Source of the DNA: a virus
Taxonomy: Duplodnaviria; Heunggongvirae; Uroviricota; Caudoviricetes
IMG/VR virus record: IMGVR_UViG_3300026078_000021
Span: 51,539 to 115,538 of that record
Reading direction: 5' to 3' (one strand)
Length of the DNA: 64,000 bases
A model generated the notes under the pieces. The model was given only the letters and a program-made list of their open reading frames with translations. It was not told the DNA's origin and ran no database searches. The position numbers were made by a program, and so were the translations under genes. Every line of letters begins with the position of its first letter. The stretch's first letter is position 1. Positions 24,529-62,465 of the stretch are shown piece after piece.

Positions 24529-24587
24529 CGGAGTTCCGTTCTGTTGGGTTGGGCTGGCAGACAGAATCGTCTCGCGCGCACTCCACC

Positions 24588-24598
24588 GTGTCAAGCCT
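24588..24598 (-). promoter_or_regulatory. conserved promoter motif AGGCTTGACAC (class 1)
   Basis: Part of a 22-nt block conserved at 24578, 27326 and 29119; TTGACA -35-like on the minus strand upstream of the gene start at 24528. Confidence 0.5.
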
Positions 24599-24655
24599 AT
24601 GGAGCATGGCAAGTAGCGGGCCCATCCCCAAAACGGGCCCGCTACCGCCGGCGGA

Positions 24656-27277
24656 TCAACTCACATACGCGCGCGCGGCGCGCTCTACCTCGCTCTGCGC
24701 TGTCGAGTCGAACTCATCCGCGAACGCGCTCCACAGTTCGCCGTCGTCCGTTTCGTCATCCCGTGTCAGTCCCAAGTCACTCATGAGCGCATCCGTGTTG
24801 TAGTCGCCCGACCATTCACCCGTCGGTGCGTAGGGCATGGTGTCCATGATCACGGGGTCGCCGTTGTCGATACCGTCGATTACCTTCTGTGCGTGCTCGG
24901 CGCTGCCGAACTCATACCAGGTAGCGGCACTCTCACCCTTCTGTGCGCCGATCGTCCGGGCGATCATGAGCGCGCACTGCCACCGAACGGCACCTAGCGG
25001 CTTGCCAAGGTCGTTCGCCTTACCGCGCATCCGGTCACGGAACCGCTCTACTCCCGTTTGCGCTTCCGAGTAGCGGTTCCCGCACTGCGCCATGACTGCG
25101 TCAAGGTCGCGCGCCATGATCGCCCGATATAGCGCTTCGGTACCTGCGAACGTGCCCAGCTCGTCCGCGTACGCGTGGACGGGCCGTTCGGTGGCGCATT
25201 GCGCGTACGGCTTATCGTGTTCGGCGCACTCGCCAGTCTGGCGCGCGGCGTACTCGGCGTGCTCGGCAGCGTCCGCGATGAATCCCGCGATATGGAGAGC
25301 GGCGCGCGCAGCGTCGAAGTGCGCGGCAGCGCGGTAGTCGGTCCCTGCCGCTAGTACCTCGCGCGCCGAGTTGATCACGTAGTAACCCCAGCGTGTCTCA
25401 TCCGCTGATCCCGGGTGACGCGTGTTGCCGTTGGAGGTGTCGACGGTTTCGAGTGGCCACACGGCTAGGTCTACATGGAAGTTCACCCGGAAGATTGCGC
25501 GCGTGTCGGGAACGGCGACCGCGCGTGTGTGGGTGTCGACCTTACCCGCATAGGTCACATAGTACCGGGCGCAGCGCTTGCACACGGTGTCGAGTGACCA
25601 GGTTCCGTCCGGGTGTTCGATCATGATTAGCTCGGTTCCGAGTTGCTTGCCGTGCCCAACGGTGGCGCAGTGCTCCCCAGCATTCGCAGCGAACCATTCG
25701 GCCGTGTGCTCTGCGCGCGCGTCCGAGTCCTCAGCGTCAGCGTCCGCAGACCATGCGCGAACGGTGGCGTCCGTCGCAGGTTGCCCACCGCTTCCCGCGA
25801 GTAGTTCCCGTTCGAACGGGAGCAACGGCGCGCCGTTGTCCGGTTCGGTGGGTCCGTCCGGTTCGGCCGAAGTGCCGTCGGTACCGTCGGGGGTGTCGGT
25901 AGGCATGTGCTCGGTGCCCGTGCATCCACTACCGTCGCAGACACCCCCCGGGCAGTGCCATGCGGTTTCGAACACGATTCCGGAGCCGCTACCCGGGCAG
26001 TCCGGGCCACCGTTCGCGCCGCATTCGACGCAGTAGTTCTCCGTACGCGTGTCGGAAACCATGATCGTGATTCCACAGCATACGCAAGCCGCGTAACCCG
26101 ACGTGCTGACGGGCGCAGTCTCGGCGGGGGTGTCGGTGCTCTCCGACGTGCTGACGGGTGCAGCGTCCCCGGGCATGACGCGATTGAGCCGGTATCGATC
26201 GTGTCCTGCCATGCTGTACGGGACCGTGTCCCATCCGGAGCACGCGAGCGCGTCACGGATGGACTTGACGCGTTGCGGACTGAGTTCTTTGTGGCAGTGG
26301 AGGATCATCGTTGCGCCGTTTTCAATCAGCGTGACCCACACGTAACCGATGCTGCCGCGCGCGCCGATATCGTCGCTACTGGCGATGATCGCTAATACGG
26401 CCGGAATGCCACCCATACTCACGGTGCGCGTGCTAACGCCATTGACTAGGGTCGCATGCGGGAACGGGAAACCGGAGTTGATCAGTGCTGCGCGAACGGC
26501 AGCGTACCGGTTCGCTGCGTATTCGCTGTGCACGGTTGGATTCTTCCGGTAGGTTCCCGTTTCCCGGAAGTCATGCCATGCGGGCCCGTCGGTGCTCGCG
26601 ACGGTTGCCGTTTCATCGTCTGACACGGGGGTGAATGACTCGCGGAAGACACGGTGTGGGATGTGCGAGGTTTCCCCGTGTGTCTCACTGGTCAGGGCCA
26701 CGGCAGCGTCCGAGTGTCCCGTGACGTAGTAAAGGTCACGTGTGTTGGCGTTCCGGTACACGGTGGGGTGTCCGTTGCCGCAGCATCCGGCCCATGGGTT
26801 CCACGGGTGATGGAAGTACTCGCCAGTCCACGGGTCACGGATGCAACAGTCCGTCCGATCGTCCATGATTTCGGCGACCGTGTCCCAGTAGTTTTCGTCT
26901 ACCGAGTAGCACACCGTGTAAACGGTTCCGGGTGTCTCTTCACCTTCGAACGCGCGGCTCTGCGCGTAGTCATTGAGTGCGGCGCGAATCTTCCCGGCAA
27001 CGTTGCTCGCTTCCGGAAGGCGACCGCCGTACACGGCCACCCGGACGCGCGAACCATCCTGGGTCACGGTGCGCGTGTCGAGGTGGACGCGCGTTGTGTC
27101 TTCCGTGACGATCACAACGGTTTCGTGTTCGGCCACGGGAAAGTTTTCAGCGATCCAGTCCCCTTCGGTCGCGCGCTCCCATGCGCCGAGAAACTTGCGC
27201 GTTCCGGCAGCGTTGAGGGCCGGCAGTCCGCGCGCGTTGAGTGCCTGGCGGATGCCGTTGACGGTTGCGTTTCGCAT
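24656..27277 (-). CDS. large hypothetical protein (~870 aa) with several CxxC clusters
   Basis: Single long ORF trimmed to Met 27277 (MRNATVNGIRQALNARGLP...). No recognisable catalytic motif. Confidence 0.5.
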   Translation of the reverse strand: MRNATVNGIRQALNARGLPALNAAGTRKFLGAWERATEGDWIAENFPVAEHETVVIVTEDTTRVHLDTRTVTQDGSRVRVAVYGGRLPEASNVAGKIRAALNDYAQSRAFEGEETPGTVYTVCYSVDENYWDTVAEIMDDRTDCCIRDPWTGEYFHHPWNPWAGCCGNGHPTVYRNANTRDLYYVTGHSDAAVALTSETHGETSHIPHRVFRESFTPVSDDETATVASTDGPAWHDFRETGTYRKNPTVHSEYAANRYAAVRAALINSGFPFPHATLVNGVSTRTVSMGGIPAVLAIIASSDDIGARGSIGYVWVTLIENGATMILHCHKELSPQRVKSIRDALACSGWDTVPYSMAGHDRYRLNRVMPGDAAPVSTSESTDTPAETAPVSTSGYAACVCCGITIMVSDTRTENYCVECGANGGPDCPGSGSGIVFETAWHCPGGVCDGSGCTGTEHMPTDTPDGTDGTSAEPDGPTEPDNGAPLLPFERELLAGSGGQPATDATVRAWSADADAEDSDARAEHTAEWFAANAGEHCATVGHGKQLGTELIMIEHPDGTWSLDTVCKRCARYYVTYAGKVDTHTRAVAVPDTRAIFRVNFHVDLAVWPLETVDTSNGNTRHPGSADETRWGYYVINSAREVLAAGTDYRAAAHFDAARAALHIAGFIADAAEHAEYAARQTGECAEHDKPYAQCATERPVHAYADELGTFAGTEALYRAIMARDLDAVMAQCGNRYSEAQTGVERFRDRMRGKANDLGKPLGAVRWQCALMIARTIGAQKGESAATWYEFGSAEHAQKVIDGIDNGDPVIMDTMPYAPTGEWSGDYNTDALMSDLGLTRDDETDDGELWSAFADEFDSTAQSEVERAARAYVS

Positions 27278-27335
27278 GGTGTGGTCTCCGTTCGGTGGGT
27301 TGTGTACTGAGAGCAGCATTGCACAGCACTCCACC

Positions 27336-27346
27336 GTGTCAAGCCT
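27336..27346 (-). promoter_or_regulatory. conserved promoter motif AGGCTTGACAC (class 1)
   Basis: Same 22-nt block as at 24578; upstream of the large-gene start. Confidence 0.5.
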
Positions 27347-27378
27347 ATAGAGTGTGTGATGTTACCGAACCGTGATGT

Positions 27379-27624
27379 CTAGTCGCACGTGTTGCTGAAG
27401 AAACTCGGGTCACCTGGCGCGCCGTACAGCTCAAACCCGACGTTGTGGCACGGTCGACCGATCACGAAACCAGCGTTCAAACCCTGGTACGTGTGGACCG
27501 GCGGGAACACCCGCGCCACACTCGCAGCGCTCCCGCTTGTGACCGTACGCACCACCGAACTTGCCACCATGGCGAGCACTGCGAGCACTGCCACCGCGAA
27601 CACTGCGCTAACAACCTTGCCCAT
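27379..27624 (-). CDS. small secreted or membrane-anchored protein
   Basis: N-terminal signal/TM segment (VVSAVFAVAVLAVLAMVASS). Confidence 0.45.
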   Translation of the reverse strand: MGKVVSAVFAVAVLAVLAMVASSVVRTVTSGSAASVARVFPPVHTYQGLNAGFVIGRPCHNVGFELYGAPGDPSFFSNTCD

Positions 27625-27713
27625 GACTACCTACCTTCGTTGTGTGACTGCCAGTCAGCCACCCATTCCCGACTACCGACCGGAGCCGGTAGCCAGGCAA
27701 GGGTGTCCGCGCG

Positions 27714-28217
27714 TCAGTATGAGCTGTGCAACGCGCAACGCAGCGCGTCACGGTTCGCGCGCACCCGCCGGCCTATAGCGACCGTGTCAGCCGTAGTCGG
27801 ATGCGACCGGTACCGGTTGCCGTTCACGGCAAGGTACGTGCACATGTCACGGATCAGCGTGCGATCGTCCGCGTGTGACCAGCCGCGCGCGCCGTACCGG
27901 ATCGGCGCGTAACACCCGTTGCACAGATAGTCGGGCCGGTCTTCCGTGATCTTCCCGTCTGCGCCGAGTGTGAGCGTGCACGCTTCGACCATGGGATGCG
28001 CGATGGAATACCGCTTACCGTCGCACCATTCGCGTACGAAGATCGGATAGAGACGCATCACGCTGCCCGTGTACGGCGCGGCGGGTACGGTGCGCACGGG
28101 GACGAGCGGCTTGCCGGTCGCAGCGTCGATGCTGCCGAGTTCGATAAGCCGCGCGCTGCCCGTACGGATGCGCCGTTCAAACTCTCGGCGCGCGGTTTTG
28201 ACGTCAGGCGCGTACAT
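27714..28217 (-). CDS. hypothetical protein
   Basis: 167 aa. Confidence 0.45.
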   Translation of the reverse strand: MYAPDVKTARREFERRIRTGSARLIELGSIDAATGKPLVPVRTVPAAPYTGSVMRLYPIFVREWCDGKRYSIAHPMVEACTLTLGADGKITEDRPDYLCNGCYAPIRYGARGWSHADDRTLIRDMCTYLAVNGNRYRSHPTTADTVAIGRRVRANRDALRCALHSSY

Positions 28218-28356
28218 GTAGCCGTAACCGTCGTATCCGAGTGCGGACGGTTGGCCCGGCTCATTGGAAATGCAACACGGCGAACATTGCTGGCTCCGTT
28301 TCGTTTGACAACCGACCGGTTACCGCGTGTGCGAGACACACGGCCCGGACGCGTGA

Positions 28357-29073
28357 TCAGACGTGCGTGAGAACCGCGATTCCGTCCGGTCGGACGTACG
28401 CGTTCCATTCGTTCGGTGGCCAGTCGAATGAGTCGACGCAATCGGCGCAAAGGTTGTCACCTTCCCGCCAGTCGGAAGCCTGGGCGGTAATCCACACGTT
28501 GGCGAACCGGTCGCAGTTTGCGTCGTATGTTCCGGGGGTGAATACCTGCCCGTAACGGCCACAGTTCGCGCACAGTGTGTCGGTTGCGCCGTTGTGTGGA
28601 CAGGGCCCGTAGTGACCGTGGCATGCGTAGTGGCGCGCGTCGTTTCCCTGGAGCATTCCCCTTAGTCGCGCGTGATCTAGTTCGCGTGTGAGCGCGTCTG
28701 CGAGTGTGCGCGTGCGGACGGAAATACTGGGCCGTTCGTATGCGTGAACCTTGCTCCTATCGCGTCCCAACCGGTCGTATTCCGGCAGCGTGTAGGTCCG
28801 CGCGGGGATGGTCCAACCGTTCGCGTTGCGCACGGGTGACTCATGCTGTTTGTCGGTGCGCATGTTGGGCACACGGTGCGGTTCTGCGCCGAGTAGCAGA
28901 CCAGCGGCGCGCGCAGTGCGTAGCGCGTACGTGATGCGTTCCGCCAGTTTTTGGGTTGGCACGGTGAACAGTGCGCGTTCCGGTTCCACTGAGTTCAGCA
29001 TGCGGAACACGGTCGGGATGCGGCGGGCCCTGCCCGTGTCGTATGGGGTCCACCATTGGTAAAGGTCAGTCAT
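28357..29073 (-). CDS. hypothetical Cys-rich protein
   Basis: Trimmed to Met 29073 with GGAAACGATCATGA context (MTDLYQWWTPYDTG...). Confidence 0.45.
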   Translation of the reverse strand: MTDLYQWWTPYDTGRARRIPTVFRMLNSVEPERALFTVPTQKLAERITYALRTARAAGLLLGAEPHRVPNMRTDKQHESPVRNANGWTIPARTYTLPEYDRLGRDRSKVHAYERPSISVRTRTLADALTRELDHARLRGMLQGNDARHYACHGHYGPCPHNGATDTLCANCGRYGQVFTPGTYDANCDRFANVWITAQASDWREGDNLCADCVDSFDWPPNEWNAYVRPDGIAVLTHV

Positions 29074-29128
29074 GATCGTTTCCTGCCGGTCGGTGGGGTG
29101 TCCACCAATCATGTCGCTTTGCTCCACC

Positions 29129-29139
29129 GTGTCAAGCCT
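29129..29139 (-). promoter_or_regulatory. conserved promoter motif AGGCTTGACAC (class 1)
   Basis: Third copy of the 22-nt block; upstream of the gene start at 29073. Confidence 0.5.
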
Positions 29140-29750
29140 ATCCGGCAAAGGATCTCCGGACAGTCCACCTGGGCCGGTCGCTACCGGCCCGGATACCGCG
29201 CGCATACCCGCCGGCAGCGCCATACCTTGCCAGCTCACGCGTGCGGGCCCTATTCTCAGACCCTGGAAAGCGCACTCGGCAGGCAATACGCCGGTACTCG
29301 ACCGTTGACATACGGTGCTGAGTGCCAGTGTGTTGACTCGTGCGTGATCTTGGCCCGTGCGCTGATTCTCGCGCGCACGGGCCCGGGGCCACCCCCCCGC
29401 CGGCCCGCCGCGCGCCCGCACGTGGGGGAGAGGATCGGCCAGCCGGCGCGGTCGGGCGCATTGACCATGAAAGCGCTAACGGGCCGCGCACGCCGGCTAC
29501 GAAGGTGACGGCAGTGTGTGAGGCACGGGCGCGACCTCGGCGGGGGATGTGACACGCCGTTGCGCTAGGTGCGGCGGGAGTATCGCGGCACGTTGCCGAT
29601 GTAAGTGCGCGGAGCTGGGCCGGCGCGTGGGGGTGGCACCGGCACGGGCGGGTAAGCGAAAGCGTGCGCAGCGGTTCGGCCGGAGTGAACTAATAGCGTT
29701 TGTTCTTGTTAGCGTTTAGCGTTTCCTTCACAGCCGCGCGGTGTAATAGC

Positions 29751-29850
29751 TTTTTACCTTTCTACCATTATTTAAATAGCGAGCGCTAGCGCTAGCGCTA
29801 GGGCCCTTTTTTGGTTTTACTATTGCGCCCGTATGGGGTCCGTATGGGGG
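29751..29850. repeat. ~85-bp AT-rich element with an (AGCGCT)x3 palindrome + GGGCCC + T-run; copy 1 of 2
   Basis: atagctttttacct...aaatagcgagcgctagcgctagcgctagggcccttttttgg...attgcgcccgtatgg. About 90% identical to the copy at 38326-38406. Sharply AT-rich in a 70%-GC context. Could act as a bidirectional terminator-like hairpin. Confidence 0.65.
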
Positions 29851-29911
29851 TTCGCCCCCGGAAACGCCAGCGCCCCCGACCGGTGATGGTCGGGGGCGCT
29901 GCGTTGGACGG

Positions 29912-34314: not shown

Positions 34315-34422
34315 GTGTGGGGCTCCGTTTCGGTGCGGGTGGCGGGCCCCGGTGTACTTCCGGTGTGGCCGGTGACGCGGCCGGGGCTTGCGACACAGCT
34401 AACTCTATCGCATCACTCAATC

Positions 34423-34433
34423 GTGTCAAGCCT
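34423..34433 (-). promoter_or_regulatory. promoter motif AGGCTTGACAC (class 1)
   Basis: caatcgtgtcaagcctgt; upstream of the gene start at 34314. Confidence 0.45.
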
Positions 34434-34443
34434 GTTGGGGTAG

Positions 34444-36797: not shown

Positions 36798-37246
36798 GGG
36801 GTGTGCTCCGTTCGGTTGGGGTTGTTGACGGCAACATTAGTCCCCGCACTCAACTGTGTCAAGCCTGTAGAGTGGTCAGGGTCTAATACCGCCCCGACCT
36901 CGCCCGTAAGCTGTGCCACCGCCGGCGCGAGCCACCCCCGCACGCACTGAACCGTCATCGCTAGCGCCGCTTCCCCGAACTGATCCGCCAGCGAACGGGC
37001 CGGATCGTACGGCACGGCGAACCGCGACACCCGCGCGAACGTGAACTCAGTGAACGAATACACCGGCAACAGGTGAAGATCCACCCGGGGGTCACCCGAA
37101 GGCCACACCCATTCGGTGTCCACCTGCCACCGGTCGCTGTCATCGCCCACGAACCGCGCGTCTCCCGCCGGCCGGGCCGTCAACAGGTAACGCAGGTCCG
37201 CAAAGCTGCTCTCCAGCCACATACGCTCCAACACGGCGTGAAGCAT
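36794..37246 (-). CDS. hypothetical protein
   Basis: 150 aa. Confidence 0.4.
   Translation of the reverse strand: MLHAVLERMWLESSFADLRYLLTARPAGDARFVGDDSDRWQVDTEWVWPSGDPRVDLHLLPVYSFTEFTFARVSRFAVPYDPARSLADQFGEAALAMTVQCVRGWLAPAVAQLTGEVGAVLDPDHSTGLTQLSAGTNVAVNNPNRTEHTP
36856..36866 (-). promoter_or_regulatory. promoter motif AGGCTTGACAC (class 1)
   Basis: caactgtgtcaagcctgtag; upstream of the gene start at 36797. Confidence 0.45.
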
Positions 37247-37802: not shown

Positions 37803-37860
37803 GGTTGCGGTTCCTTCCGTGTGCCGTAGGATAGGTCCAACATTACTCCCGTACTCCATC

Positions 37861-37871
37861 GTGTCAAGCCT
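37861..37871 (-). promoter_or_regulatory. promoter motif AGGCTTGACAC (class 1)
   Basis: ccatcgtgtcaagcctctag; upstream of the gene start at 37802. Confidence 0.45.
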
Positions 37872-37911
37872 CTAGAGGGAGGCGGCCGACACGCCGACCA
37901 GGGGAACCGCC

Positions 37912-39874: not shown

Positions 39875-39916
39875 GGTGGGCTCCCCGGAAAACACAGTCA
39901 CGCGTCGCGCGCAACA

Positions 39917-39927
39917 GTGTCAAGCCT
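39917..39927 (-). promoter_or_regulatory. promoter motif AGGCTTGACAC (class 1)
   Basis: gcaacagtgtcaagcctacc; upstream of the integrase start. Confidence 0.45.
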
Positions 39928-40207
39928 ACCTTGTTCAGTGCCGCCTGCGCCAGAGGCACAGCCGACGGCCCCAGCAGGCCGAACGCCACCGCGAGCACGC
40001 CCGTCACCACCAGCCACGTCGCATTCGGCCCCAGGGGCGTGGGCACGAACGCGGCGAACACCAGTCCCCACGTCGTCGCCACGGCACCTGTGGCGAACGC
40101 GTAAACCCACGTCGCAAGATCAAAGAAACCGCGCATCACGCCTCCACCGGTACGACAATAAGACGTCTCAGCGTAGCGGGGCGCGGACCGGCGGCGCGGC
40201 GTATCGC

Positions 40208-40906: not shown

Positions 40907-40968
40907 GGAAGTGTCCTTCCGGTGCATGCGTTGAGTGTGCCGCAACTTACTCTGCGTGCTGGCCTGTG

Positions 40969-41262
40969 TCAAGCAGTGCGGGCGACGCGGGCCGCGTGGT
41001 CGGCGGCGTTCGCGGCGCTTTTCGCCGCGCGGCACACGGGACACCGGCAGGCGTAGTTGGCGTAACCGCCCAGGCCGTGCGGGATCTGGTCCTGCGGCTG
41101 GTCGCGCTGTGCCTCTCTCCAGCGTGCGGTACGTTCGCTCTGCCACCGTTTACAGTCGCCGCATCGACACCTGGATTTCACGTAGCCGTGCCAGGTGCCG
41201 TGCCACTGCGCCGGGATGTCCGCCACGCGCCGAGCGTAGCAGTGCGCCACCGCGTCAAGCGC
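40969..41262 (-). CDS. zinc-ribbon DNA-binding-like protein sharing the G-x-W/Y-HGY-x-CRC-x2-C motif (start uncertain)
   Basis: 'HGTWHGYVKSRCRCGDCKRW' and 'HGLGGYANYACRCPVCRAA' resemble the motif in 4386..4904. Confidence 0.4.
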   Translation of the reverse strand, partial: ALDAVAHCYARRVADIPAQWHGTWHGYVKSRCRCGDCKRWQSERTARWREAQRDQPQDQIPHGLGGYANYACRCPVCRAAKSAANAADHAARVARTA

Positions 41263-43900: not shown

Positions 43901-44033
43901 CCAGCGCTTCGCCGATCCATCACTATGCGGTTGTCAGGGTGCTGCGAGTGCCTGGTCACGGGGGTTTGGGCTCTCAATTCCCAAAGGATGGCTGAGAAGT
44001 ATCCCCCGCGTTCGCTTCGCGGCACCGCTCAAC

Positions 44034-44365
44034 CTACCCGCGAGCGCCACACCGTGCAAGCCTGTTGATTTGCTCATATGATAGCCCCGGCCGCGCGACG
44101 GCCCCCGCCACAGCCAGCGCACAGTCCGACCAGCCCGCCTCATAGCCCTGCCGGTACAACCCCTCGCCGTCCGTGAGGCCGTAGAGAAACAGGACGCTGA
44201 CGTTGCATGCCTGCGCGATCGCAAGCAGCTTGCCGGCGGGGGGCTCGTGCTGACCGCGCTCCCAGTTAGTCATCGTGGGGCTGCTCACGCCGACGCGCCG
44301 CGCCAGTTCCCGCTGACTGATGCCCGCCCCGCTTCGGGCGCGGGCGATGTTCCCACCCAGGCTCA
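44034..44365 (-). CDS. XRE-family HTH regulator (GTG start)
   Basis: 'ISQRELARRVGVSSPTMTNWERGQHEP'. Confidence 0.6.
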
Positions 44366-46019: not shown

Positions 46020-46161
46020 GCGTGTTCTCCCGCTGATTCGCTGTGTGTTCCACGAACGTAGCCACGGCGCGCAACGGTGTCAAATCATTGGGATTATCGT
46101 CGTTTTCTACGCCGCCAAGGCTCCAGCCAACACCCCGGGCCATAACGGTCGGATCATAGCA

Positions 46162-47146: not shown

Positions 47147-47203
47147 AACAACAGCCTTCTACTTTGGCTTGACACGCGTGATCCCCCTGTTGGAAACGGC
47201 ATG

Positions 47204-48906: not shown

Positions 48907-48929
48907 ACCCCTCCGATCCGCACAGGGCC

Positions 48930-53401: not shown

Positions 53402-53635
53402 GGGGGCTCCCGCGAAGGGGAAAATGTGTGGCCCAACTCTAGCGTGTCAATGCCAGATGTCAACTGCCGCCTATGGCCGGCAGCCCCCGTTCGCGGGCGA
53501 TGCGCGCGATGGTGGCACGCGCGTTCTTCACCGCTTTACTCTCTCCTGGCCGGTCAGGCAGTGCGAAGAGGAGAACACCGCCGTAGCGCACCTGCCAGCG
53601 GTTGCCGCGCAGTGTGACGTTGTAACCGGCGGCTA

Positions 53636-54479: not shown

Positions 54480-54575
54480 GGCGGAGAAATCAGGCCCCCC
54501 TAGGCTGGAATGTCCCCCCTGGCCCGGTGCACGCGGGTACGCACGTGCCGTCAGAACAGAGGGGACGCGCGCAGT

Positions 54576-54947: not shown

Positions 54948-54987
54948 ATCCGCTCCTTTCCGTAAAACCAGTGAAGAAACCCGGGTG

Positions 54988-55650
54988 CTACTGCGCGCCG
55001 CTCGCGGCACGCAACAGCGACGCCAGCTTGATCCAATCCGTTCGCGGCCACCGCGTCCGGCACCCCCGGCACTCGATCACGTCCACATAGGGGTGCGCGT
55101 ACAGCGCGGTGGCGCACACGTAGCCGTCGGTGGCCACCGTCGGGCACAACCCCACCCGGCGCGTGTCACTGGGCCCCTCCACCTGCGCCCGGCACTGCGC
55201 CACCAACTCGTGCACGTCCTGCGCGAAGCGGCCTGGCTCGCTGGCACCGTCGGCCGCCCACGGCCAGTTCACCGCCAAAAACTGCGCGCAGCCAGCCACG
55301 GTCTGCTGCGCGCTGCCGCGAAACGGCGCCCACGACCACCCCAGCTCCTCGCGCCACACCTGCTCCCACCCCCACAGTGCGCTGGCCATGCCGCCCCACG
55401 CGCGCAGGCTCAGCGGTTCGACCCGCACGTTCAGTTGCCCGAACCTGCTGGAGCGCACCCGCTCGCCCGCGCCGGCGGCCCCGGGCGCCACCACCTGGCC
55501 CAGGCGCTCGTACCAGGTCGGCAGCGAGGCGATCAGCGTTCCCACCCGCTCGCGACAGCCCCGGCACACCCGCGCCCTGCTCCCGCGCCGGCACACCCAA
55601 CACGCGGCCTGCTGCTCGTACTCCAGTTGCGGGCCCTGCGTCTGCGCCAC
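54988..55650 (-). CDS. hypothetical Cys-rich protein
   Basis: 220 aa; CWVCRR...CRGCRER and C-terminal CRGCRTRW. Confidence 0.45.
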   Translation of the reverse strand: MAQTQGPQLEYEQQAACWVCRRGSRARVCRGCRERVGTLIASLPTWYERLGQVVAPGAAGAGERVRSSRFGQLNVRVEPLSLRAWGGMASALWGWEQVWREELGWSWAPFRGSAQQTVAGCAQFLAVNWPWAADGASEPGRFAQDVHELVAQCRAQVEGPSDTRRVGLCPTVATDGYVCATALYAHPYVDVIECRGCRTRWPRTDWIKLASLLRAASGAQ

Positions 55651-55674: not shown

Positions 55675-57168
55675 CTACAAACTGGACTCCTGCCGCATGT
55701 ACGCCCCGGCGCGGCGCAGCAGGTCGTCGAGCGCCGGAAGATCACTGGAACCGGTGTAGGTGACGCCGAACTCACTCTCACGCCGCCCGCAGAACCGGTC
55801 GAGGTAGTACCTCTCCCCGCCGAACTCCTCCAGCCGGCCCAGGATGCGCAGGAACGCCAGCACCTCCTTCGGGCGCGAGAGCACCGGAGCGGCGGCGATC
55901 ACCAGGGTAACCCCGCCGCGCGAGGCTGTCAGCGGCCCGAGCCGCGTGAGGGCCGGCAGTACCTTGGCTTGCGCCAGGCGCGCGCGCGTCTCATCGACGA
56001 CCAGATCGGTGGGCGCCCACTCCGCCAGCTCGTCGACCAGCTCCGGCTTCGCCCTCAGCTCATCGAACCCGATCAGTTCGTGGTGCGCGGTGCCGCCGCT
56101 GTACGGGGCGTGCGGTAGCGCTTTGGCGGCGATCGTGTAGTGGTGCAGTGACTCGGGTGCGCACAGCACCAGTACGCGCGGCGGGCAGGTGCGCGGGCGC
56201 AGTCGCACCGCCTCCATGGCCTCGGCCGCGCGCGGCACGCCGGGTGTGGCGCACAGCAGCACGCTGCGGTTGCGCAGGATGAACTCCACCGCCGCGTGCG
56301 CGGCGACGCTCAGCCCCGGGGCGAGCCCCGGCACGCTCGCGCTGGGGGTCGACGCGAGGGACTGGGTTTCGTTCCACGCCGCGAGCGAGGCCGCTTGCTG
56401 CGCCTCGTGCTCAAGGTCCGGGTGGAAGATCAGGCCCCAGCGCTGGGCGAACGCCGTGACGGCGGCCAGTTGCCCGGCGGGCACCAGCCAACTGTCGCGC
56501 GCGATCTTGTCGTAATGGCGCCCGGGGATCGCCTTGATCCCGTCCAGGGCGGCGCGGCTGAAGGGGAAACGCACGCGCAGGCTCGCGCCGGCGTCCGCAC
56601 TGGTGATGTCCGCGTCCCGTTCCAGCGCCGTGTCGGTGGTGCGCGCGGTGGTGGCGGTCAGGGCGAGCACGTCGGGGTGCGCCGTGATGCCGTGCCGGCG
56701 GCACACCTCGATCACCTCCACGGCGCTGGCGGTGGGGAACAGCGTCACCCCGTTGCGTTCTTTGAACGTCTTGAGGAACCGGTGGCCGGGGATGCGCTGC
56801 AACTGTGCGACCAGGCGCGGGTGGTAGGAGGGGGTGGAGATCAGGATGACGCGGCTGGTGCCCTCCCGTTCCAGGATGACCTCGCACTCGGCGGCGAAAC
56901 GCTGGTTGCGCTGCCACAGCGCCCGGTTGCGCTGGACGCGTTCGGCGGCGGCGGCCACGGTCTCGGCGTCCTCGGGTTCGGGCAGGTTGGTCGCGGGTGG
57001 CAGCAGCGCGCGGTGGTGGTCGGCGAGGAAGGCGGCCACCGCGCGGCAGTCCTCGTCCCACAGTTCCGCCGGCAGCTGGGCGAGGTATTCCACCAGGGGA
57101 CGTTCGCCCGCTGCCAGGTCGGCTGCGCGAGCGCCCAGGGCGCGCAGCGCGTCGCACAGCTGGTTCAC
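55675..57168 (-). CDS. SNF2/helicase-like protein (degenerate; lacks an obvious Walker A)
   Basis: 497 aa; 'LVVDE' (motif II-like) and 'TLVIAAAPV' (motif III-like). Confidence 0.35.
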   Translation of the reverse strand: MNQLCDALRALGARAADLAAGERPLVEYLAQLPAELWDEDCRAVAAFLADHHRALLPPATNLPEPEDAETVAAAAERVQRNRALWQRNQRFAAECEVILEREGTSRVILISTPSYHPRLVAQLQRIPGHRFLKTFKERNGVTLFPTASAVEVIEVCRRHGITAHPDVLALTATTARTTDTALERDADITSADAGASLRVRFPFSRAALDGIKAIPGRHYDKIARDSWLVPAGQLAAVTAFAQRWGLIFHPDLEHEAQQAASLAAWNETQSLASTPSASVPGLAPGLSVAAHAAVEFILRNRSVLLCATPGVPRAAEAMEAVRLRPRTCPPRVLVLCAPESLHHYTIAAKALPHAPYSGGTAHHELIGFDELRAKPELVDELAEWAPTDLVVDETRARLAQAKVLPALTRLGPLTASRGGVTLVIAAAPVLSRPKEVLAFLRILGRLEEFGGERYYLDRFCGRRESEFGVTYTGSSDLPALDDLLRRAGAYMRQESSL

Positions 57169-57443
57169 GGTTGGTTGACGGCGTTGCGCAGCACGGCGCT
57201 GGGGTGGAAGCGGGGGCGGCGGCGCGCGGTGACTTCCATGCTCTTGCCGGTGCGCGGGTTTTTCGCGGTGCGCGCAGGCACGTCCAGGGTGGAAAACACC
57301 CCGAAAGAGACCAGTTTGACCTCCTCGCCTGCCTTCAGCGCGGCGGTGATGGCCTCCACCAGGCCCTTGTACACGCGCGCGACCAGTTCCGGCTCAAGGT
57401 CCAGGGCGCCCGCGACATGTTGCGTGAGAGACGACTTATTCAT
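57165..57443 (-). CDS. HU/IHF-family histone-like DNA-binding protein
   Basis: 'VSFGVFSTLDVPARTAKNPRTGKSMEVTARRRPRFHPSAVLRNAV' is the HU beta-arm signature. Confidence 0.85.
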   Translation of the reverse strand: MNKSSLTQHVAGALDLEPELVARVYKGLVEAITAALKAGEEVKLVSFGVFSTLDVPARTAKNPRTGKSMEVTARRRPRFHPSAVLRNAVNQP

Positions 57444-57473
57444 GCCATGAGATGCTAATGACGGCTGTGTTGC

Positions 57474-57484
57474 ATGTCAAGCCT
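57474..57484 (-). promoter_or_regulatory. promoter motif AGGCTTGACAT (class 1 variant)
   Basis: tgcatgtcaagcctgccc; 30 nt upstream of the HU start. Confidence 0.45.
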
Positions 57485-57508
57485 GCCCAGGTTCCGTCAT
57501 CCACACCT

Positions 57509-60084: not shown

Positions 60085-60193
60085 GGTTATCCCTTCAGCG
60101 AGGGGTGTCAATGCATGAGTAGTGCACGATAACACGGAAGACTTCACCTGGCGAAACACACGTATATACGCGCCTTGCATACGCATGCGGCGG

Positions 60194-60265
60194 TACCTCC
60201 GACGGGACTCGAACCCGTTCCTCCACGTTGAAAGGGTGGTGACCTACCCATAGTGCGACGGAGGC
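60194..60265 (-). tRNA. tRNA-Glu(TTC)
   Basis: Loop CTTTCAA; acceptor GCCTCCG/CGGAGGT; C-C mismatch at 31:39. Confidence 0.7.
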
Positions 60266-60277
60266 ATGCGGGATGCG

Positions 60278-60351
60278 TGGCGCCAGCGGGGCTCGAACCC
60301 GTCACTACCGACTTGAGAGACCGGCGGTCTGCCGACTTAACCTATGGCGCC
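60278..60351 (-). tRNA. tRNA-Glu(CTC)
   Basis: Anticodon arm CCGGT-CTCTCAA-GTCGG; perfect acceptor GGCGCCA/TGGCGCC. Confidence 0.7.
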
Positions 60352-60352
60352 G

Positions 60353-60425
60353 TGCCCCCTGCCGGTCTCGAACCGGCGACCCGCGCATTAAGAGTGCGCT
60401 GCTCTACCCGCTGAGCTAAAGGGGC
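60353..60425 (-). tRNA. tRNA-Lys(CTT)
   Basis: Anticodon arm GCGCA-CTCTTAA-TGCGC. Confidence 0.8.
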
Positions 60426-60435
60426 GTACCACGGG

Positions 60436-60507
60436 TGGGACCGGTGGGACTCGAACCCACAACCTACGGATTAAAAGTCCGCTACTCTGCCATTGAGTTA
60501 CGATCCC
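60436..60507 (-). tRNA. tRNA-Lys(TTT)
   Basis: Anticodon arm GCGGA-CTTTTAA-TCCGT. Confidence 0.8.
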
Positions 60508-60560
60508 GCGATCAGGCTACTGCACCGGCTCTGCCGACGCCGCCGTTTTGTCCTTTGCCG

Positions 60561-60633
60561 TGGCCCCGGACGGAGTCGAACCGCCGACCTCTCCCTTTTC
60601 AGGGGAACGCTCTACCGGCTGAGCTACAAGGCC
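60561..60633 (-). tRNA. tRNA-Phe(GAA)
   Basis: Anticodon arm TTCCC-CTGAAAA-GGGAG; D-arm GCTCAGCCGGTAGAGC. Confidence 0.8.
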
Positions 60634-60636
60634 ATC

Positions 60637-60660
60637 GCGTCGCACCGGCCGGTGCGACGC
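60637..60660. terminator. perfect 24-bp palindrome GCGTCGCACCGG/CCGGTGCGACGC (hairpin; possible terminator)
   Basis: Perfect inverted repeat with no flanking T-run, so function is uncertain. Confidence 0.3.
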
Positions 60661-60884
60661 GGTACTCAGATAGACGAGTTGAACAGGGCCTCATCGGGTT
60701 TGGGCCGCGTGTCGCCCGCGAGGTCACCCAGCGTGGCCCTGCTCACATCCGGCACCCGGGAAGACAAGTTCGTGTCCATGCCGAATCACCAGCCTCTCTC
60801 TTACCTCGCGCAGCGGATGGTCGGTGAGGGCAGAGGCCTGCCCCCTGCCCGAACGATAGCATTCGTCGTATCGCACCGCGCGTG

Positions 60885-60957
60885 CACGCCCACGAGGATT
60901 CGAACCTCGAACCGCCCGGGTTGGAGCCGGGTGCTCTGCCAGTTGAGCTATAGGCGC
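60885..60957 (-). tRNA. tRNA-Trp(CCA)
   Basis: Anticodon arm CCCGG-CTCCAAC-CCGGG; G73. Confidence 0.8.
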
Positions 60958-60996
60958 CCGCCTGTCCACCGCGCCGACGCTCGACACGGTGCCTGT

Positions 60997-61069
60997 CGCT
61001 CTCCCGGCAGGACTCGAACCTGCGACCCTCGCATTAACAGTGCGGTGCTCTGCCCACTGAGCTACGGAA
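60997..61069 (-). tRNA. tRNA-Asn(GTT)
   Basis: U1-A72; loop CTGTTAA; G73. Confidence 0.75.
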
Positions 61070-61125
61070 GACCGGCGCCAGGCGCATGGGGTGCCTGGCG
61101 TGGCGGGGCACGCGCGGCACCTGCG

Positions 61126-61198
61126 TCGTCCCGGACGGTCTCGAACCGCCCACCTCCGGCGTGTCGTGCCGGCGCTCTCCCGACTGAGCTACGGGACG
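61126..61198 (-). tRNA. tRNA-Val(GAC); anticodon loop ACGACAC has C at position 33
   Basis: Perfect acceptor CGTCCCG/CGGGACG; anticodon stem CCGGC/GCCGG. Confidence 0.65.
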
Positions 61199-61210
61199 TG
61201 CATCGCGTGG

Positions 61211-61284
61211 TCGGCCCGGCAGGGTTTGAACCTGCGACCTCCCCGGTGTGGGCGGGGCGCTCTCCCGAACTGAGCTACAAGCCG
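61211..61284 (-). tRNA. tRNA-Val(CAC); anticodon loop CCCACAC has C at position 33
   Basis: Anticodon stem CCCCG/CGGGG; T-loop TTCAAAC. Confidence 0.65.
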
Positions 61285-61294
61285 TCGTTATGCG

Positions 61295-61368
61295 TTGGCC
61301 TCCCGGGATTTGAACCCGGAACCTCCCGGTTATCAGCCGGGTGCTCCGACCGCTTGAGCTAGAGACCA
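61295..61368 (-). tRNA. tRNA-Ile(GAT)
   Basis: Anticodon arm CCCGG-CTGATAA-CCGGG. Confidence 0.8.
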
Positions 61369-61417
61369 TCAACCAGATGACGAGCACCATGGTAACCGAC
61401 GTACACGAGTGTATCGA

Positions 61418-61466
61418 GGGGAAGGCGCGGCGCAGGATGCGGACCGCCGCGCCTTCCGTTTCTCAT
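61418..61466 (+). terminator. 13-bp GC-rich inverted repeat followed by GTTTCT (rho-independent terminator-like)
   Basis: GGAAGGCGCGGCG caggatgcggac CGCCGCGCCTTCC gtttctc. Confidence 0.3.
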
Positions 61467-61530
61467 CCCATCCGAACCAGGCGAGAGCGCGCCCGGCGCA
61501 CGCGGGTTACCAGCCCGCGCGGTTCCTGCG

Positions 61531-61602
61531 CCGGGATTCGAACCCGGACGCGACGCTTCGGGGGCGCCTGCTCTATCCGTTGAGCTACGCAGGAGGAGAA
61601 CA
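61531..61602 (-). tRNA. tRNA-Arg(CCG); anticodon loop CCCCGAA has C at position 33
   Basis: Perfect acceptor TCCTGCG/CGCAGGA; anticodon stem GGCGC/GCGTC. Confidence 0.65.
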
Positions 61603-61648
61603 AGGTGCAGCCGGGCCGCAAGCGGCGACACCACAGGAAGGAGGCTGG

Positions 61649-61721
61649 GCCCGGCGCCGTGCCTCCAACCGGATTCGAACCGGTGACCCGCGCATTATAA
61701 CGGCGCCGCTCTACCTGCTGA
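61649..61721 (-). tRNA. tRNA with anticodon TAT (Ile, AUA); 4-bp anticodon stem with a C-U mismatch
   Basis: Anticodon arm GCGCC-GTTATAA-TGCGC; acceptor GCCTCTA/TGGAGGC. Confidence 0.5.
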
Positions 61722-61723
61722 GC

Positions 61724-61760
61724 TATAGAGGCTCGTTCTGCTGCCCCTCGTCCCGTGCGG
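61724..61760. terminator. 12-bp perfect inverted repeat TTCTGCTGCCCC...GGGGCAGCAGAA (hairpin)
   Basis: Stem-loop between two tRNA genes; no T-run. Confidence 0.25.
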
Positions 61761-61838
61761 GGCAGCAGAACTGGGCGGCACGACGGCGCGCAAGGGCAGC
61801 GCCCGCGCACCGAACACGCCGGTCCCGAGCCCCTGGCA

Positions 61839-61910
61839 GGAATCGAACCTGCACGTGCGGCTCCGTAAACCGCTGCTCTGTCCGTTGAGCTACAAGGGCG
61901 TAATACAGGG
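61839..61910 (-). tRNA. tRNA-Arg(ACG)
   Basis: Anticodon arm GCGGT-TTACGGA-GCCGC; U73. Confidence 0.8.
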
Positions 61911-62024
61911 TGCCGTCCGCCCGCGCCGGCTGTGGGGGAGGGCGCAGTGCGGGCGGACGGCGGATTCAGCCATCGTCACTCGCCGAACCCTTGGCCTTCA
62001 CACTATGGACGCCGCTTCACTCTG

Positions 62025-62465
62025 TCAAGCCTTTGTGGGTTTCGGTTCCTGTTGGCGGTGCACCAGCAGCAGTACCCAGTGCGCCTGGAACTCCCGGCCG
62101 AAGCCGTGCTCGTTCAGGCACGCGCAGAAATCCCCGCCGCATGCGCGGTGCAGCGCGTCGGCCAGCGCCGTGTATGTGGAGCCCCAGGCGTGGGCGACCT
62201 GCCCGAGCACGCACCGGCGCGGGTCGCCCTGGTCCAAGAGCCCGAGCTGCACCAGCCACGGCCACGACGCGTCACGCGCCCCAAGCCACGCCTCGCCGGC
62301 GCGCACCTGCGGGGCCACCTCCAGCGCCGACGCGGTGGACCAGGGCGGCGCGACCAGACCGTTAGGCTCCGGCAGCGGCCAGGCGGTGTGTCCACTCCTC
62401 GCGCAGTCGCGCGAAGTACTCCCGCTCCTGTACTGCCGAGCACTGGCGCGGCGCAGTGAAACCAT
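62025..62465 (-). CDS. hypothetical protein (paralog of 62362..62775; start uncertain)
   Basis: Shared 'RCVLGQ(V/I)A' core. Confidence 0.35.
   Translation of the reverse strand: MVSLRRASARQYRSGSTSRDCARSGHTAWPLPEPNGLVAPPWSTASALEVAPQVRAGEAWLGARDASWPWLVQLGLLDQGDPRRCVLGQVAHAWGSTYTALADALHRACGGDFCACLNEHGFGREFQAHWVLLLVHRQQEPKPTKA
62032..62042 (-). promoter_or_regulatory. promoter motif AGGCTTGACAG (class 1 variant)
   Basis: cactctgtcaagcctttgtg; lies upstream (on the minus strand) of the tRNA array. Confidence 0.4.

What the first reader, a model, noticed from the sequence alone, without database searches (positions are those of the whole stretch)
24578..62042. Conserved promoter-like motif AGGCTTGACAC upstream of at least 9 minus-strand transcription units
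The 11-mer GTGTCAAGCCT (plus-strand sense) recurs at 24588, 27336, 29129, 34423, 36856, 37861, 39917, 57474 and 62032. Variants occur at 12798, 40966 and 44054. It is always intergenic or at a gene 5' end. On the minus strand it reads AGGCTTGACAC, a consensus sigma-70/SigA -35 hexamer with a conserved 5' extension. Three copies share a 22-nt block (ATAGGCTTGACACGGTGGAGTG). This appears to define one temporal promoter class of the element.
Basis: seen in the sequence. Interest (0 to 1): 0.55.

Follow-up and report, generated by a model that had tools for sequence, protein, structure and literature searches.

The report
Repeated host-type promoters in a phage
The repeated 11-mer is the -35 end of at least nine near-consensus housekeeping-sigma promoters that head leftward gene blocks and a tRNA array in a new high-GC actinobacterial phage; this is an ordinary feature of phage genomes, with a small twist in its conserved flanks.

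Summary
GTGTCAAGCCT occurs exactly 7 times (0.03 expected). Two more copies have one mismatch, at 57474 and at 62022 (not 62032). All nine read AGGCTTGACA on the minus strand, the strand of nearly all genes.

Each TTGACA is followed 16-18 nt later by an A2/T6 -10 hexamer. This holds for 12 of 14 family members against a 7.5% background. A start codon usually lies 62-66 nt from the TTGACA; in one case the target is a 13-tRNA array. The window is a novel phage of about 115 kb and 67% GC with 31 tRNAs.

Two distant relatives (about 44% protein identity) carry promoters at the same syntenic positions. Across the three genomes the whole ~79-nt promoter-plus-leader cassette aligns. TTGACA and part of the spacer (yGGTGGAG) are shared. 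The 5' AGGC extension is lineage-specific: the relatives have CCCGAA-N4 or TTCGTCACGAA-N3 instead.

Best reading: strong promoters for the host primary sigma factor (SigA/HrdB type). The "single temporal class" idea is plausible but untested. The invariant flanks, and two reverse-oriented copies without a -10, leave room for an overlapping regulator site. This is a new member of a known kind, of low to moderate interest.

The parts
24566..24600 (-). Promoter P24594: ATAGGC-TTGACA-17 nt-GACGAT. The ATG of a 154-aa ORFan is at 24528.
   Evidence: orthologous to L015:12381 with 26/30 identity
27315..27348 (-). Promoter P27342: ATAGGC-TTGACA-16 nt-AATGCT. The ATG of an 873-aa protein of unknown function is at 27277.
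   Evidence: orthologous to L015:9935 and L019:3334
29108..29141 (-). Promoter P29135: ATAGGC-TTGACA-16 nt-CATGAT. The ATG of a 238-aa protein is at 29073.
34402..34435 (-). Promoter P34429: ACAGGC-TTGACA-16 nt-TAGAGT. The leader is 88 nt from the end of the -10 to the ATG at 34314.
   Evidence: L015:3313 has the same TAGAGT -10
36834..36868 (-). Promoter P36862: ACAGGC-TTGACA-17 nt-TAATGT, embedded in the 3' end of ORF 36794-37246. ATG at 36797.
37840..37873 (-). Promoter P37867: AGAGGC-TTGACA-16 nt-TAATGT. ATG at 37802.
39894..39929 (-). Promoter P39923: GTAGGC-TTGACA-18 nt-GACTGT. The ATG of a tyrosine-recombinase family protein is at 39874.
57452..57486 (-). Promoter P57480: GCAGGC-TTGACA-17 nt-TAGCAT. 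The ATG of an HU-like protein is 9 nt after the -10, so the mRNA would be nearly leaderless.
62000..62034 (-). Promoter P62028: AAAGGC-TTGACA-17 nt-TAGTGT, 101 nt upstream of the first tRNA (61899) of a 13-tRNA array.
12775..12811 (-). Variant promoter: CGC-TTGACAC-19 nt-TACTGT, upstream of an HNH-domain gene (start 12684).
40944..40978 (-). Variant promoter: TGC-TTGACAC-17 nt-TAAGTT. The ATG of a 60-aa ORF is at 40927.
44031..44065 (-). Variant promoter: CAGGC-TTGCAC-17 nt-TAGGTT, upstream of YrlA-like RNA hits and the Ro/TROVE gene.
46055..46089 (-). Family member without AGGC: TTGACACCGTTGCGCG-17 nt spacer-TACGTT. The ATG of a DUF7873 protein is at 46019, 64 nt from the TTGACA.
53421..53456 (-). 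Family member without AGGC: TTGACACGCTAGAG-18 nt spacer-CATTTT. A GTG start is at 53401.
62743..62756 (+). Reverse-oriented exact copy of TTGACACGGTGGAG. It lies in a short gap between two minus-strand genes, 16 nt upstream of the ATG at 62727. There is no -10 on the + strand. Unexplained.
47166..47175 (+). Reverse-oriented copy GGCTTGACAC. It lies in the 57-nt gap between the methylase gene and the next minus-strand gene (ATG 47146). There is no -10 on the + strand. Unexplained.

Best explanation
The 11-mer is the -35 hexamer TTGACA plus conserved flanks. It belongs to a family of at least nine strong promoters, and about fourteen counting weaker relatives. These promoters are read by the host RNA polymerase carrying its primary sigma factor (SigA/HrdB type).

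Each promoter heads a leftward transcription unit of a roughly 115-kb high-GC actinobacterial phage. The units encode unknown-function genes, a recombinase-family protein, an HU-like protein and a 13-tRNA array.

Each promoter is part of a ~79-nt expression cassette: -35, a partly conserved spacer, an A2/T6 -10, a C/A-rich leader, a GGAG ribosome-binding site and the ATG. The cassette recurs in front of unrelated genes and is older than the split between this phage and two distant relatives.

Shown: the sequence architecture, the statistics, the orientation, the position relative to genes, and the conservation at syntenic positions.

Inferred: actual transcription starts, the identity of the sigma factor, and early timing.
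For: - Enrichment: 7 exact copies against 0.03 expected, and 9 with up to one mismatch in one orientation.
- The -10: 12 of 14 sites have a hexamer with A at position 2 and T at position 6 at a spacer of 16-18, against a background frequency of 7.5% (binomial p about 2e-12).
- Distance to the gene: TTGACA to start codon is 62-66 nt at five of the nine core sites and at 46083, and 49, 37 and 115 nt at the other core sites. One site lies 129 nt before a tRNA array.
- Nearly all genes are on the same strand as the motif.
- Relatives L015 and L019 have about 44% and 42% protein identity for the 873-aa protein. They carry TTGACA promoters at the same syntenic gene junctions.
- The orthologous 30-nt cores are 67-87% identical, against 63% for the adjacent coding DNA.
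- Fifteen cassettes from the three genomes align end to end at 61% mean column identity, with TTGACA invariant.
- It is the only distinctive k-mer family enriched in intergenic DNA of the window, apart from a palindromic repeat and YrlA-related words.
- From my own knowledge: the -10 forms (TAGAGT, GACGAT, CATGAT, TAATGT) fit the actinobacterial TANNNT / Streptomyces TAGRRT pattern.
Against: - There is no transcript data, so no start site is shown.
- The -35 and its flanks are more conserved than the -10. From my own knowledge, this is the reverse of what is usual for actinobacterial SigA promoters, and it suggests an additional constraint.
- Several -10 hexamers start with G, C or A rather than T.
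- Two partial copies lie in the opposite orientation without any -10 (47166+, 62743+). A pure promoter model does not explain them.
- The structural-gene part of the genome was not available, so restriction to one temporal class is untested.
Confidence: 0.8

Rival explanations
1. The sites are promoter and operator in one. A phage-encoded DNA-binding protein recognises the conserved flanks (CTCYAnAGGC on the 5' side, CnnTnGAGTG in the spacer). By binding over the -35 it switches all these promoters off, or on, together. This would work like the operator/stoperator sites of Cluster A mycobacteriophages or the repeated repressor sites of phiC31. This reading adds to the promoter model rather than replacing it.
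For: - In this genome the positions outside TTGACA (AGGC, C at +7, T at +10, GAG at +12 to +14) are at least 80% conserved, while the -10 is only loosely conserved.
- The 5' flank is homogeneous within each genome but differs between genomes: AGGC here, CCCGAA-N4 in L015, and the palindrome TTCGTCACGAA-N3 in L019. That pattern is expected if the sites co-evolve with a cognate protein.
- In L019 the -35 sits in a near-palindrome, CTTGAC-ACG-GTCAAG.
- Five window sites have an outer inverted repeat, CTCYA-N14-TKGAG.
- Two reverse-oriented copies have no -10.
- The window encodes many small DNA-binding proteins. Two of them have tandem HTH domains: 16354-16845 and 16832-17407.
Against: - No regulator can be assigned.
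- No homolog of the L5 gp71 repressor was found by tblastn in the roughly 74 kb of this genome held here or in the relatives.
- Within-genome homogeneity could equally come from duplication or gene conversion of the cassette.
- The dyad is present in only about half of the sites.
- Close variants (99% identical) carry too few substitutions to test for selection on the flanks.
Confidence: 0.3
2. The ~79-nt cassette mainly serves as a patch of homology for recombination that shuffles genes. This would resemble the promoter-early stem-loop (PeSL) cassettes of T4-like phages. Promoter activity would be retained, but the repeat conservation would be driven by recombination.
For: - The same cassette precedes unrelated genes.
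- At 3 of 5 orthologous cassettes the gene immediately downstream differs between genomes while the following genes are homologous.
- PeSL precedent: PMC4122927 and PMC2839356.
Against: - No stem-loop accompanies the promoter. Fold z-scores run from -1.6 to +1.7 and there is no consensus structure.
- Terminator-like sites are not enriched.
- The inserted genes are not flanked by a second cassette copy.
- Only three genomes were available.
Confidence: 0.12
3. The sites are repressor roadblocks (stoperators) or another dispersed repeat, and not promoters at all.
For: - The plus-strand reading ...CCACCGTGTCAAG resembles the general form of Cluster A/CA stoperators, which end in TGTCAAG: L5 GGTGGMTGTCAAG and Cluster CA TGTCTATTGTCAAG.
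- Like stoperators, the sites are asymmetric and oriented with transcription.
Against: - Stoperators are mostly not promoter-associated. In the L5 region inspected they lie close to the next gene's start; at the copy I read in detail, TTGACA is 32 nt from the ATG.
- Here 12 of 14 sites carry a correctly spaced -10, and the ATG lies 62-66 nt away at five of the nine core sites.
- No gp71-like repressor was found.
Confidence: 0.04
4. The promoters are read by a phage-encoded or alternative sigma factor whose -35 recognition extends to AGGCTTGACAC.
For: - The -35 region is unusually invariant.
- A small GerE/sigma-70-region-4-like protein is encoded at 54129-54479.
Against: - From my own knowledge, TTGACA with a 16-18 spacer and an A2/T6 -10 is the primary-sigma pattern.
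- No sigma factor gene was detected among the proteins scanned.
- The AGGC extension is absent from the orthologous promoters of the relatives.
Confidence: 0.04

Closest known systems
Consensus primary-sigma (sigma-70 / SigA / HrdB) promoters used by phages for early genes, for example L5 Pleft and other SigA-like mycobacteriophage promoters
   Same: TTGACA at -35, a 16-18 nt spacer, an A2/T6 -10, co-orientation with genes, short leaders, and several copies per genome.
   Different: Here the flanks of the -35 (AGGC and CnnTnGAGTG) and much of the leader are also conserved, so the repeated unit is a ~79-nt cassette. The -35 is more conserved than the -10.
Operator/stoperator sites of Cluster A mycobacteriophages (L5, Bxb1), Rhodococcus Cluster CA phages and Streptomyces phage R4 (PMC6550527, PMC13313380, PMC10276819)
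   Same: Asymmetric sites containing CTTGACA/TGTCAAG, in many copies, oriented with transcription. The consensus differs between related phages. The L5 Pleft operator overlaps the promoter's -35.
   Different: Most stoperators are not at promoters and act by blocking elongation. Here nearly every copy has its own -10 and a leader. No gp71-type repressor was found. There are fewer copies: 9-14 in 64 kb.
Promoter-early stem-loop (PeSL) cassettes of T4-like phages (PMC2839356, PMC4122927)
   Same: A conserved early-promoter cassette is repeated in front of many small genes of unknown function. Gene content differs between relatives right next to the cassettes.
   Different: There is no associated stem-loop or terminator. 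The host lineage and sequence are different. Recombination at the cassettes is not demonstrated.
Repeated early promoters and conserved inverted repeats (repressor sites) of Streptomyces phage phiC31 (recalled from my own knowledge, not checked here)
   Same: An actinophage early region with a series of highly similar promoters and repeated regulator sites.
   Different: As I recall, the phiC31 early promoters do not resemble the primary-sigma consensus, and its repressor sites are 17-bp palindromes. Here the -35 is canonical and the sites are largely asymmetric.

Membership tests
Primary-sigma (sigma-70/SigA/HrdB) promoter | -35 hexamer matching TTGACA | tested here: met
   All 9 core sites and 4 of 5 variants have exact TTGACA. 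Site 44054 has TTGCAC.
Primary-sigma (sigma-70/SigA/HrdB) promoter | -10 hexamer (TANNNT type, A2 and T6) 16-18 nt downstream of the -35 | tested here: met
   12 of 14 sites, against a background of 7.5%, p about 2e-12. The strict built-in scanner (at least 9/12 matches to TTGACA/TATAAT) picked up only 2 of the 7 core sites in the region scanned, because these -10s are G/C-containing.
Primary-sigma (sigma-70/SigA/HrdB) promoter | Located upstream of, and co-oriented with, a gene or RNA gene | tested here: met
   All 9 core sites are on the gene strand. The start codon is 37-115 nt from the TTGACA, or 129 nt in the case of the tRNA array.
Primary-sigma (sigma-70/SigA/HrdB) promoter | Transcription start 6-9 nt downstream of the -10, dependent on the primary-sigma holoenzyme | not testable with these tools
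   No transcript data are available. The host is unknown, because the contig is from soil/rhizosphere metagenomes.
Cluster A-type stoperator/operator system | 13-14 bp asymmetric site without dyad symmetry, oriented with transcription, in many copies | tested here: inconclusive
   Orientation: 9/9 with transcription, but two partial copies are reversed. The core is asymmetric, but 5 sites have an outer CTCYA/TKGAG dyad. There are 9-14 copies in 64 kb, against 20-30 in about 50 kb for Cluster A.
Cluster A-type stoperator/operator system | Most sites not associated with promoters (elongation block) | tested here: not met
   12 of 14 sites have a correctly spaced -10.
Cluster A-type stoperator/operator system | Genome encodes an L5 gp71-type immunity repressor | tested here: not met
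   tblastn of L5 gp71 against the window, L020, L015 and L019 gave a best E-value of 2.6. About 39 kb of the genome was not available.
PeSL cassettes of T4-like phages | Early promoter joined to a conserved stem-loop/terminator | tested here: not met
   There is no significant or shared secondary structure around the sites. Terminator-like sites are at chance level.
PeSL cassettes of T4-like phages | Cassettes coincide with indel/replacement boundaries between related genomes | tested here: inconclusive
   At 3 of 5 orthologous cassettes the first downstream gene differs between genomes. Only three genomes were available, with no control for other gaps.

The most novel reading that the evidence does not exclude
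The 22-nt unit (CTCYAn)AGGCTTGACACnnTnGAGTG is a combined promoter and operator. A so far unidentified phage protein, possibly one of the tandem-HTH proteins, would bind an asymmetric site over the -35 of every cassette and so switch the whole non-structural gene set together. The lineage-specific 5' flanks (AGGC, CCCGAA-N4, TTCGTCACGAA-N3) would be the specificity determinants. This would be an immunity-like system analogous to Cluster A stoperators but not homologous to them, in a large tRNA-rich actinophage.
Probability: 0.3. Interest if true: 0.5.

Novelty: new member of a known kind. Interest (0 to 1): 0.3.

Why it matters
The result gives a usable transcription map for an uncultivated 115-kb actinobacterial phage that has almost no annotated relatives. 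It defines at least nine transcription units, including a promoter for a 13-tRNA array and probably one for a Ro/Y-RNA-like module. The ~80-nt cassettes are candidate strong, portable promoter-plus-leader parts for high-GC actinobacteria. If the conserved flanks prove to be a regulator site, the three lineages would offer a small natural series in which promoter-proximal specificity changes while the core promoter stays fixed. As it stands, repeated consensus promoters in a phage are expected and not surprising.

Tried and rejected
- Close relatives in phage and plasmid collections: megablast of 48 kb of the window gave only a 97-nt hit in a Ro-like gene of Gordonia phage VanLee and a few short plasmid hits. 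tblastn of the 873-aa and 646-aa proteins against phages gave nothing.
- Relatives by back-translated peptide patterns in IMG/VR and GTDB genomes, with a single protein and with a 3-sequence alignment: none.
- Motif scans of public collections returned only single-copy hits. These look like chance and no contig carried several copies. The patterns were AGGCTTGACACNNTNGAG(T) in IMG/VR and in metagenomes, and the L015- and L019-type patterns in IMG/VR.
- Hairpin idea: folding -14..+20 around each site gave z-scores from -1.6 to +1.7 and no consensus structure. I rejected an RNA or DNA hairpin as the conserved feature.
- The leader word CCGAACGGAG as a separate dispersed motif: not enriched, 108 matches against 108 expected at two mismatches. 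It is conserved only inside the cassettes.
- Selection test using 99%-identical variants of the same phage (L020, L263): only 1 substitution in 154 motif positions against a rate of about 1-1.5%, which is too few to say anything.
- L5 gp71-type repressor: not found. PDB sequence searches with the two tandem-HTH proteins gave only generic HTH and GntR hits.
- A second promoter class in the window: the k-mer enrichment of intergenic DNA showed none.
- Two look-ups by exact protein (window 559-1137 and 51680-52768) found no record. The remaining ~39 kb of the genome, presumably holding the structural genes, could not be fetched.

Full report

Largely yes. GTGTCAAGCCT occurs exactly seven times, at 24588, 27336, 29129, 34423, 36856, 37861 and 39917. 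All copies are on the same strand, against 0.03 expected, and none of 100 dinucleotide-preserving shuffles came close. Allowing one mismatch adds 57474 (ATGTCAAGCCT) and 62022 (CTGTCAAGCCT) in the same orientation, plus one copy on the other strand at 47165.

- '62032' is the end of the last copy, not its start.
- Only two copies share the 22-nt block. Three share 20 nt.
- The three 'variants' are real but weaker: 12798 and 40966 keep CTTGACAC, and 44054 reads CAGGCTTGCAC.

A repeat search independently recovers a 27-nt family of six copies (D5). A matrix built from the nine sites separates them cleanly from everything else in the window. The nine score 17.6-36.7 bits and the next best site scores 12.9. 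This test is partly circular, because the matrix was built from those same nine sites.

**2. What the window is.**

The window has 62-72% G+C, and almost every plausible gene is on the minus strand. It carries 31 tRNA genes, mostly in two arrays at 1634-6042 and 60192-61899.

Recognisable proteins include:
- a Ro/TROVE protein
- an RNB exoribonuclease with a dsRBD
- a C5 cytosine methylase
- a tyrosine-recombinase family protein
- DUF2637 and SPFH proteins
- RecT and a PD-(D/E)XK nuclease
- HU and Lsr2
- many small HTH, RHH, GntR and GerE proteins

The window is identical to part of 109-115 kb contigs assembled repeatedly from public metagenomes. Just beyond position 64000 the genes diverge in the opposite direction (GntR, a DnaC-like loader, WhiB). 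No phage or plasmid in the reference collections is close. The most economical reading is a novel, large, tRNA-rich phage of a high-GC actinobacterium. The host is not known.

**3. Anatomy of the sites.**

On the minus strand every site reads AGGC-TTGACA. A hexamer with A at position 2 and T at position 6 follows at a spacer of 16-18 nt in 12 of 14 family members. Examples are GACGAT, AATGCT, CATGAT, TAGAGT, TAATGT (twice), GACTGT, TAGCAT and TAGTGT. Only 7.5% of all window positions satisfy this (binomial p about 2e-12).

The first plausible start codon, preceded by a GGAG-type ribosome-binding site, lies at these distances from the T of TTGACA:
- 62-66 nt at five of the nine core sites, and at the extra member 46083
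- 49 nt at the recombinase gene
- 115 nt at 34423
- 37 nt at the HU gene, which leaves only 9 nt after the -10 and implies a nearly leaderless mRNA

The copy at 62022 has no ORF downstream. Instead it sits 101 nt ahead of the first tRNA of the 13-tRNA array. The variant at 44054 precedes several sub-threshold YrlA (Y RNA-like) matches and the Ro gene.

Most sites are intergenic. Site 36856 lies inside the last ~70 nt of a called upstream ORF, 39917 lies inside the 3' end of another, and 62022 overlaps a stop codon. Further members lacking AGGC but sharing TTGACAC and part of the spacer are at 46083 and 53450, each with a -10 and a start codon at the expected distance. A copy of the full motif (AAGGCTTGACACAGTTGAGTG) also precedes a gene in the oppositely transcribed arm outside the window, again co-oriented with its gene (L020 position 2810).

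**4. Comparative evidence.**

The 873-aa protein between two exact copies has only two detectable relatives among 5.8 billion clusters, at 44% and 42% identity. Their contigs (L015/L016 and L019) are syntenic with the window.

Both carry TTGACA promoters at the same gene junctions. The orthologous 30-nt cores are 67-87% identical. Adjacent coding DNA is 63% identical and the 30 nt further upstream only 30-57%. The best pair is TTGACACGGTGGAGTGCGCGCGAGACGATT against TTGACATGGTGGAGTGGACGCGAGACGATC.

Fifteen cassettes from the three genomes align from -45 to the ATG at 61% mean identity (A3). The consensus is TTGACA-CGGTGGAGTG..GCGA-nAnGAT, then a C/A-rich leader, then CCGAAnGGAG..ACACC-ATG. The repeated unit is therefore a ~79-nt promoter-plus-leader cassette that predates the divergence of these phages.

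- In the window, 10 of 10 sites have AGGC, half of them preceded by CTCYAn.
- In L015, 5 of 5 sites have CCCGAA-N3-C.
- In L019, 3 of 3 sites have the palindrome TTCGTCACGAA-N2-C.

**5. How it most likely works.**

TTGACA, a 16-18 nt spacer and an A2/T6 -10, with a G/A-rich -10 interior, is the pattern of the primary sigma factor of actinobacteria (SigA/HrdB; TANNNT and TAGRRT consensus). That pattern is my own knowledge. I therefore take these to be strong host-polymerase promoters, each starting a transcription unit.

The units would run roughly as follows:
- 62028 drives the tRNAs, then RecT and a nuclease.
- 57480 drives HU, then Lsr2 and GerE.
- 39923 drives the recombinase-family gene.
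- 37867, 36862, 34429, 29135, 27342 and 24594 drive successive blocks of unknown-function genes.

Dependence on unmodified host polymerase and the non-structural gene content make early expression likely. This is inference only. No second intergenic motif class is visible in the window, and the arm that should hold the structural genes could not be retrieved.

**6. What the simple promoter model leaves unexplained.**

- The -35 and its flanks are invariant while the -10 is loose. From my own knowledge, this is the reverse of ordinary actinobacterial promoters.
- The flanks are homogeneous within a genome and different between genomes.
- In L019 the -35 is embedded in CTTGAC-ACG-GTCAAG, and five window sites have an outer CTCYA-N14-TKGAG dyad.
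- Two copies lie in the reverse orientation in short gaps, 16-20 nt upstream of a minus-strand ATG, with no -10 on the plus strand. They are the exact 14-mer TTGACACGGTGGAG at 62743 and GGCTTGACAC at 47166. By my own estimate from base composition, about 4e-4 exact copies of the 14-mer are expected by chance.

These points fit an overlapping binding site for a phage regulator. They fit equally well with concerted evolution of a duplicated cassette. No RNA or DNA hairpin is supported.

**7. Comparison with known systems.**

The closest functional analogue is the ordinary class of SigA-like phage promoters.

The closest special system is the operator/stoperator network of Cluster A mycobacteriophages and related Rhodococcus and Streptomyces phages. 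Those sites are 13-14 bp and asymmetric, end in TGTCAAG, are oriented with transcription, differ between related phages, and include a site overlapping the -35 of Pleft. The resemblance in form is real. L5 sites read CTTGACAGCCACC in the direction of transcription, and the sites here read CTTGACACGGTGG. Two defining features fail, however. Most stoperators are not at promoters, whereas nearly all sites here are. No gp71-type repressor is detectable. I therefore do not file this as a stoperator system.

PeSL cassettes of T4-like phages share the idea of a repeated early-promoter cassette at gene-shuffling boundaries. At 3 of 5 orthologous cassettes the first downstream gene does differ between the three genomes. 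But there is no stem-loop partner, and the inserted genes are not bracketed by cassette copies.

**8. Verdict.**

The finding is real, and the promoter interpretation is well supported by sequence statistics, gene context and conservation in relatives. The specific 11-mer is TTGACA plus a lineage-specific flank rather than a special promoter determinant. The 'one temporal class' claim remains an untested inference.

Repeated consensus promoters in a phage are expected, so this is a new member of a known kind. I set interest at about 0.3. The part above baseline comes from three things: the possibility (about 0.3) that the conserved flanks mark a genome-wide regulator site, the usefulness of the cassettes as parts, and the transcription map for an otherwise unannotated phage lineage.

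Noticed in passing
window 43457-45187 (-) and 41713-43377 (-): A Ro/TROVE gene (41713-43377) is preceded by five sub-threshold matches to Rfam YrlA (Y RNA-like, RF02553). They lie at 43457-43518 (38 bits, E 2e-6), 43620-43686, 43791-43914, 44951-45062 and 45131-45187. ARAGORN also calls a tRNA-Pro at 43654-43727 inside this stretch. This looks like a phage Ro plus multi-copy Y-RNA-like module. The matches are below Rfam's gathering score of 69.
   Followed up: partly
window 1634-6042 and 60192-61899: 31 tRNA genes, mostly in two arrays (17 and 13 genes), all on the minus strand and covering most amino acids. The right-hand array has its own motif promoter at 62028.
   Followed up: partly
window 29755-29811 and 38327-38383: A 57-nt repeat (86% identical): an AT-rich stretch, the palindrome CTAGCGCTAGCGCTAG, and GGGCCCTTTTT. 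The first copy lies in a ~770-nt stretch without a convincing ORF (29140-29911). The second lies just after the only plus-strand gene call of the region (about 37912-38325). It could be a terminator for the plus strand, an origin-like element or a small RNA. Not resolved.
   Followed up: partly
window 62743-62756 (+) and 47166-47175 (+): There are reverse-oriented copies of the promoter core: the exact 14-mer TTGACACGGTGGAG, and GGCTTGACAC. Each lies in a short gap between minus-strand genes, 16-20 nt upstream of the next ATG. Neither has a -10 on the plus strand.
   Followed up: partly
window 16354-16845 (-), 16832-17407 (-): Two adjacent regulators each contain two DNA-binding domains in one chain: 2 x HTH_3 (163 aa) and 2 x GntR winged helix (191 aa). 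Such tandem-domain monomers could read asymmetric sites. L015 has homologs of the first at only 30-38% identity.
   Followed up: partly
window 44034-44907 (-), 40208-40588 (-), 54129-55010 (-), 57165-57443 (-): Small DNA-binding proteins are unusually dense: an RHH, two Cro/CI-type HTH proteins, a GntR, a GerE/LuxR, Lsr2 and HU. Another GntR and a WhiB lie just beyond position 64000 (L020).
   Followed up: no
window 24064-24528, 33697-34314; L015 7278-8087, 12446-13461: At three of five orthologous promoter cassettes, the gene immediately downstream is present in one genome and absent or replaced in the relatives. The next genes are homologous. New genes seem to sit directly behind the cassettes.
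   Followed up: partly
window 29866-29911 (-): A 12-bp perfect inverted repeat, GCGCCCCCGACC / GGTCGGGGGCGC, lies directly after the stop of the 555/646-aa gene at 29912. On the minus strand it is followed by TGGCGTTTCC. It is a likely terminator closing the unit that starts at 34429.
   Followed up: no
window about 46453-46719 (-) and 48900-49900 (-): Precomputed Pfam labels on a 99%-identical contig (L263) list an Acb5-family protein (PF26761, 88 aa), a PAPS-reductase-like protein (a faint hit) next to the C5 methylase, and a YAcAr-domain protein. My own Pfam scan of the ORF I tried in that stretch (46404-46691) found nothing.
   Followed up: no
window 20000-30000: G+C drops to 62-64% here, against 67-72% elsewhere. 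The three most similar promoter copies (24594, 27342, 29135) lie in this lower-GC segment.
   Followed up: no
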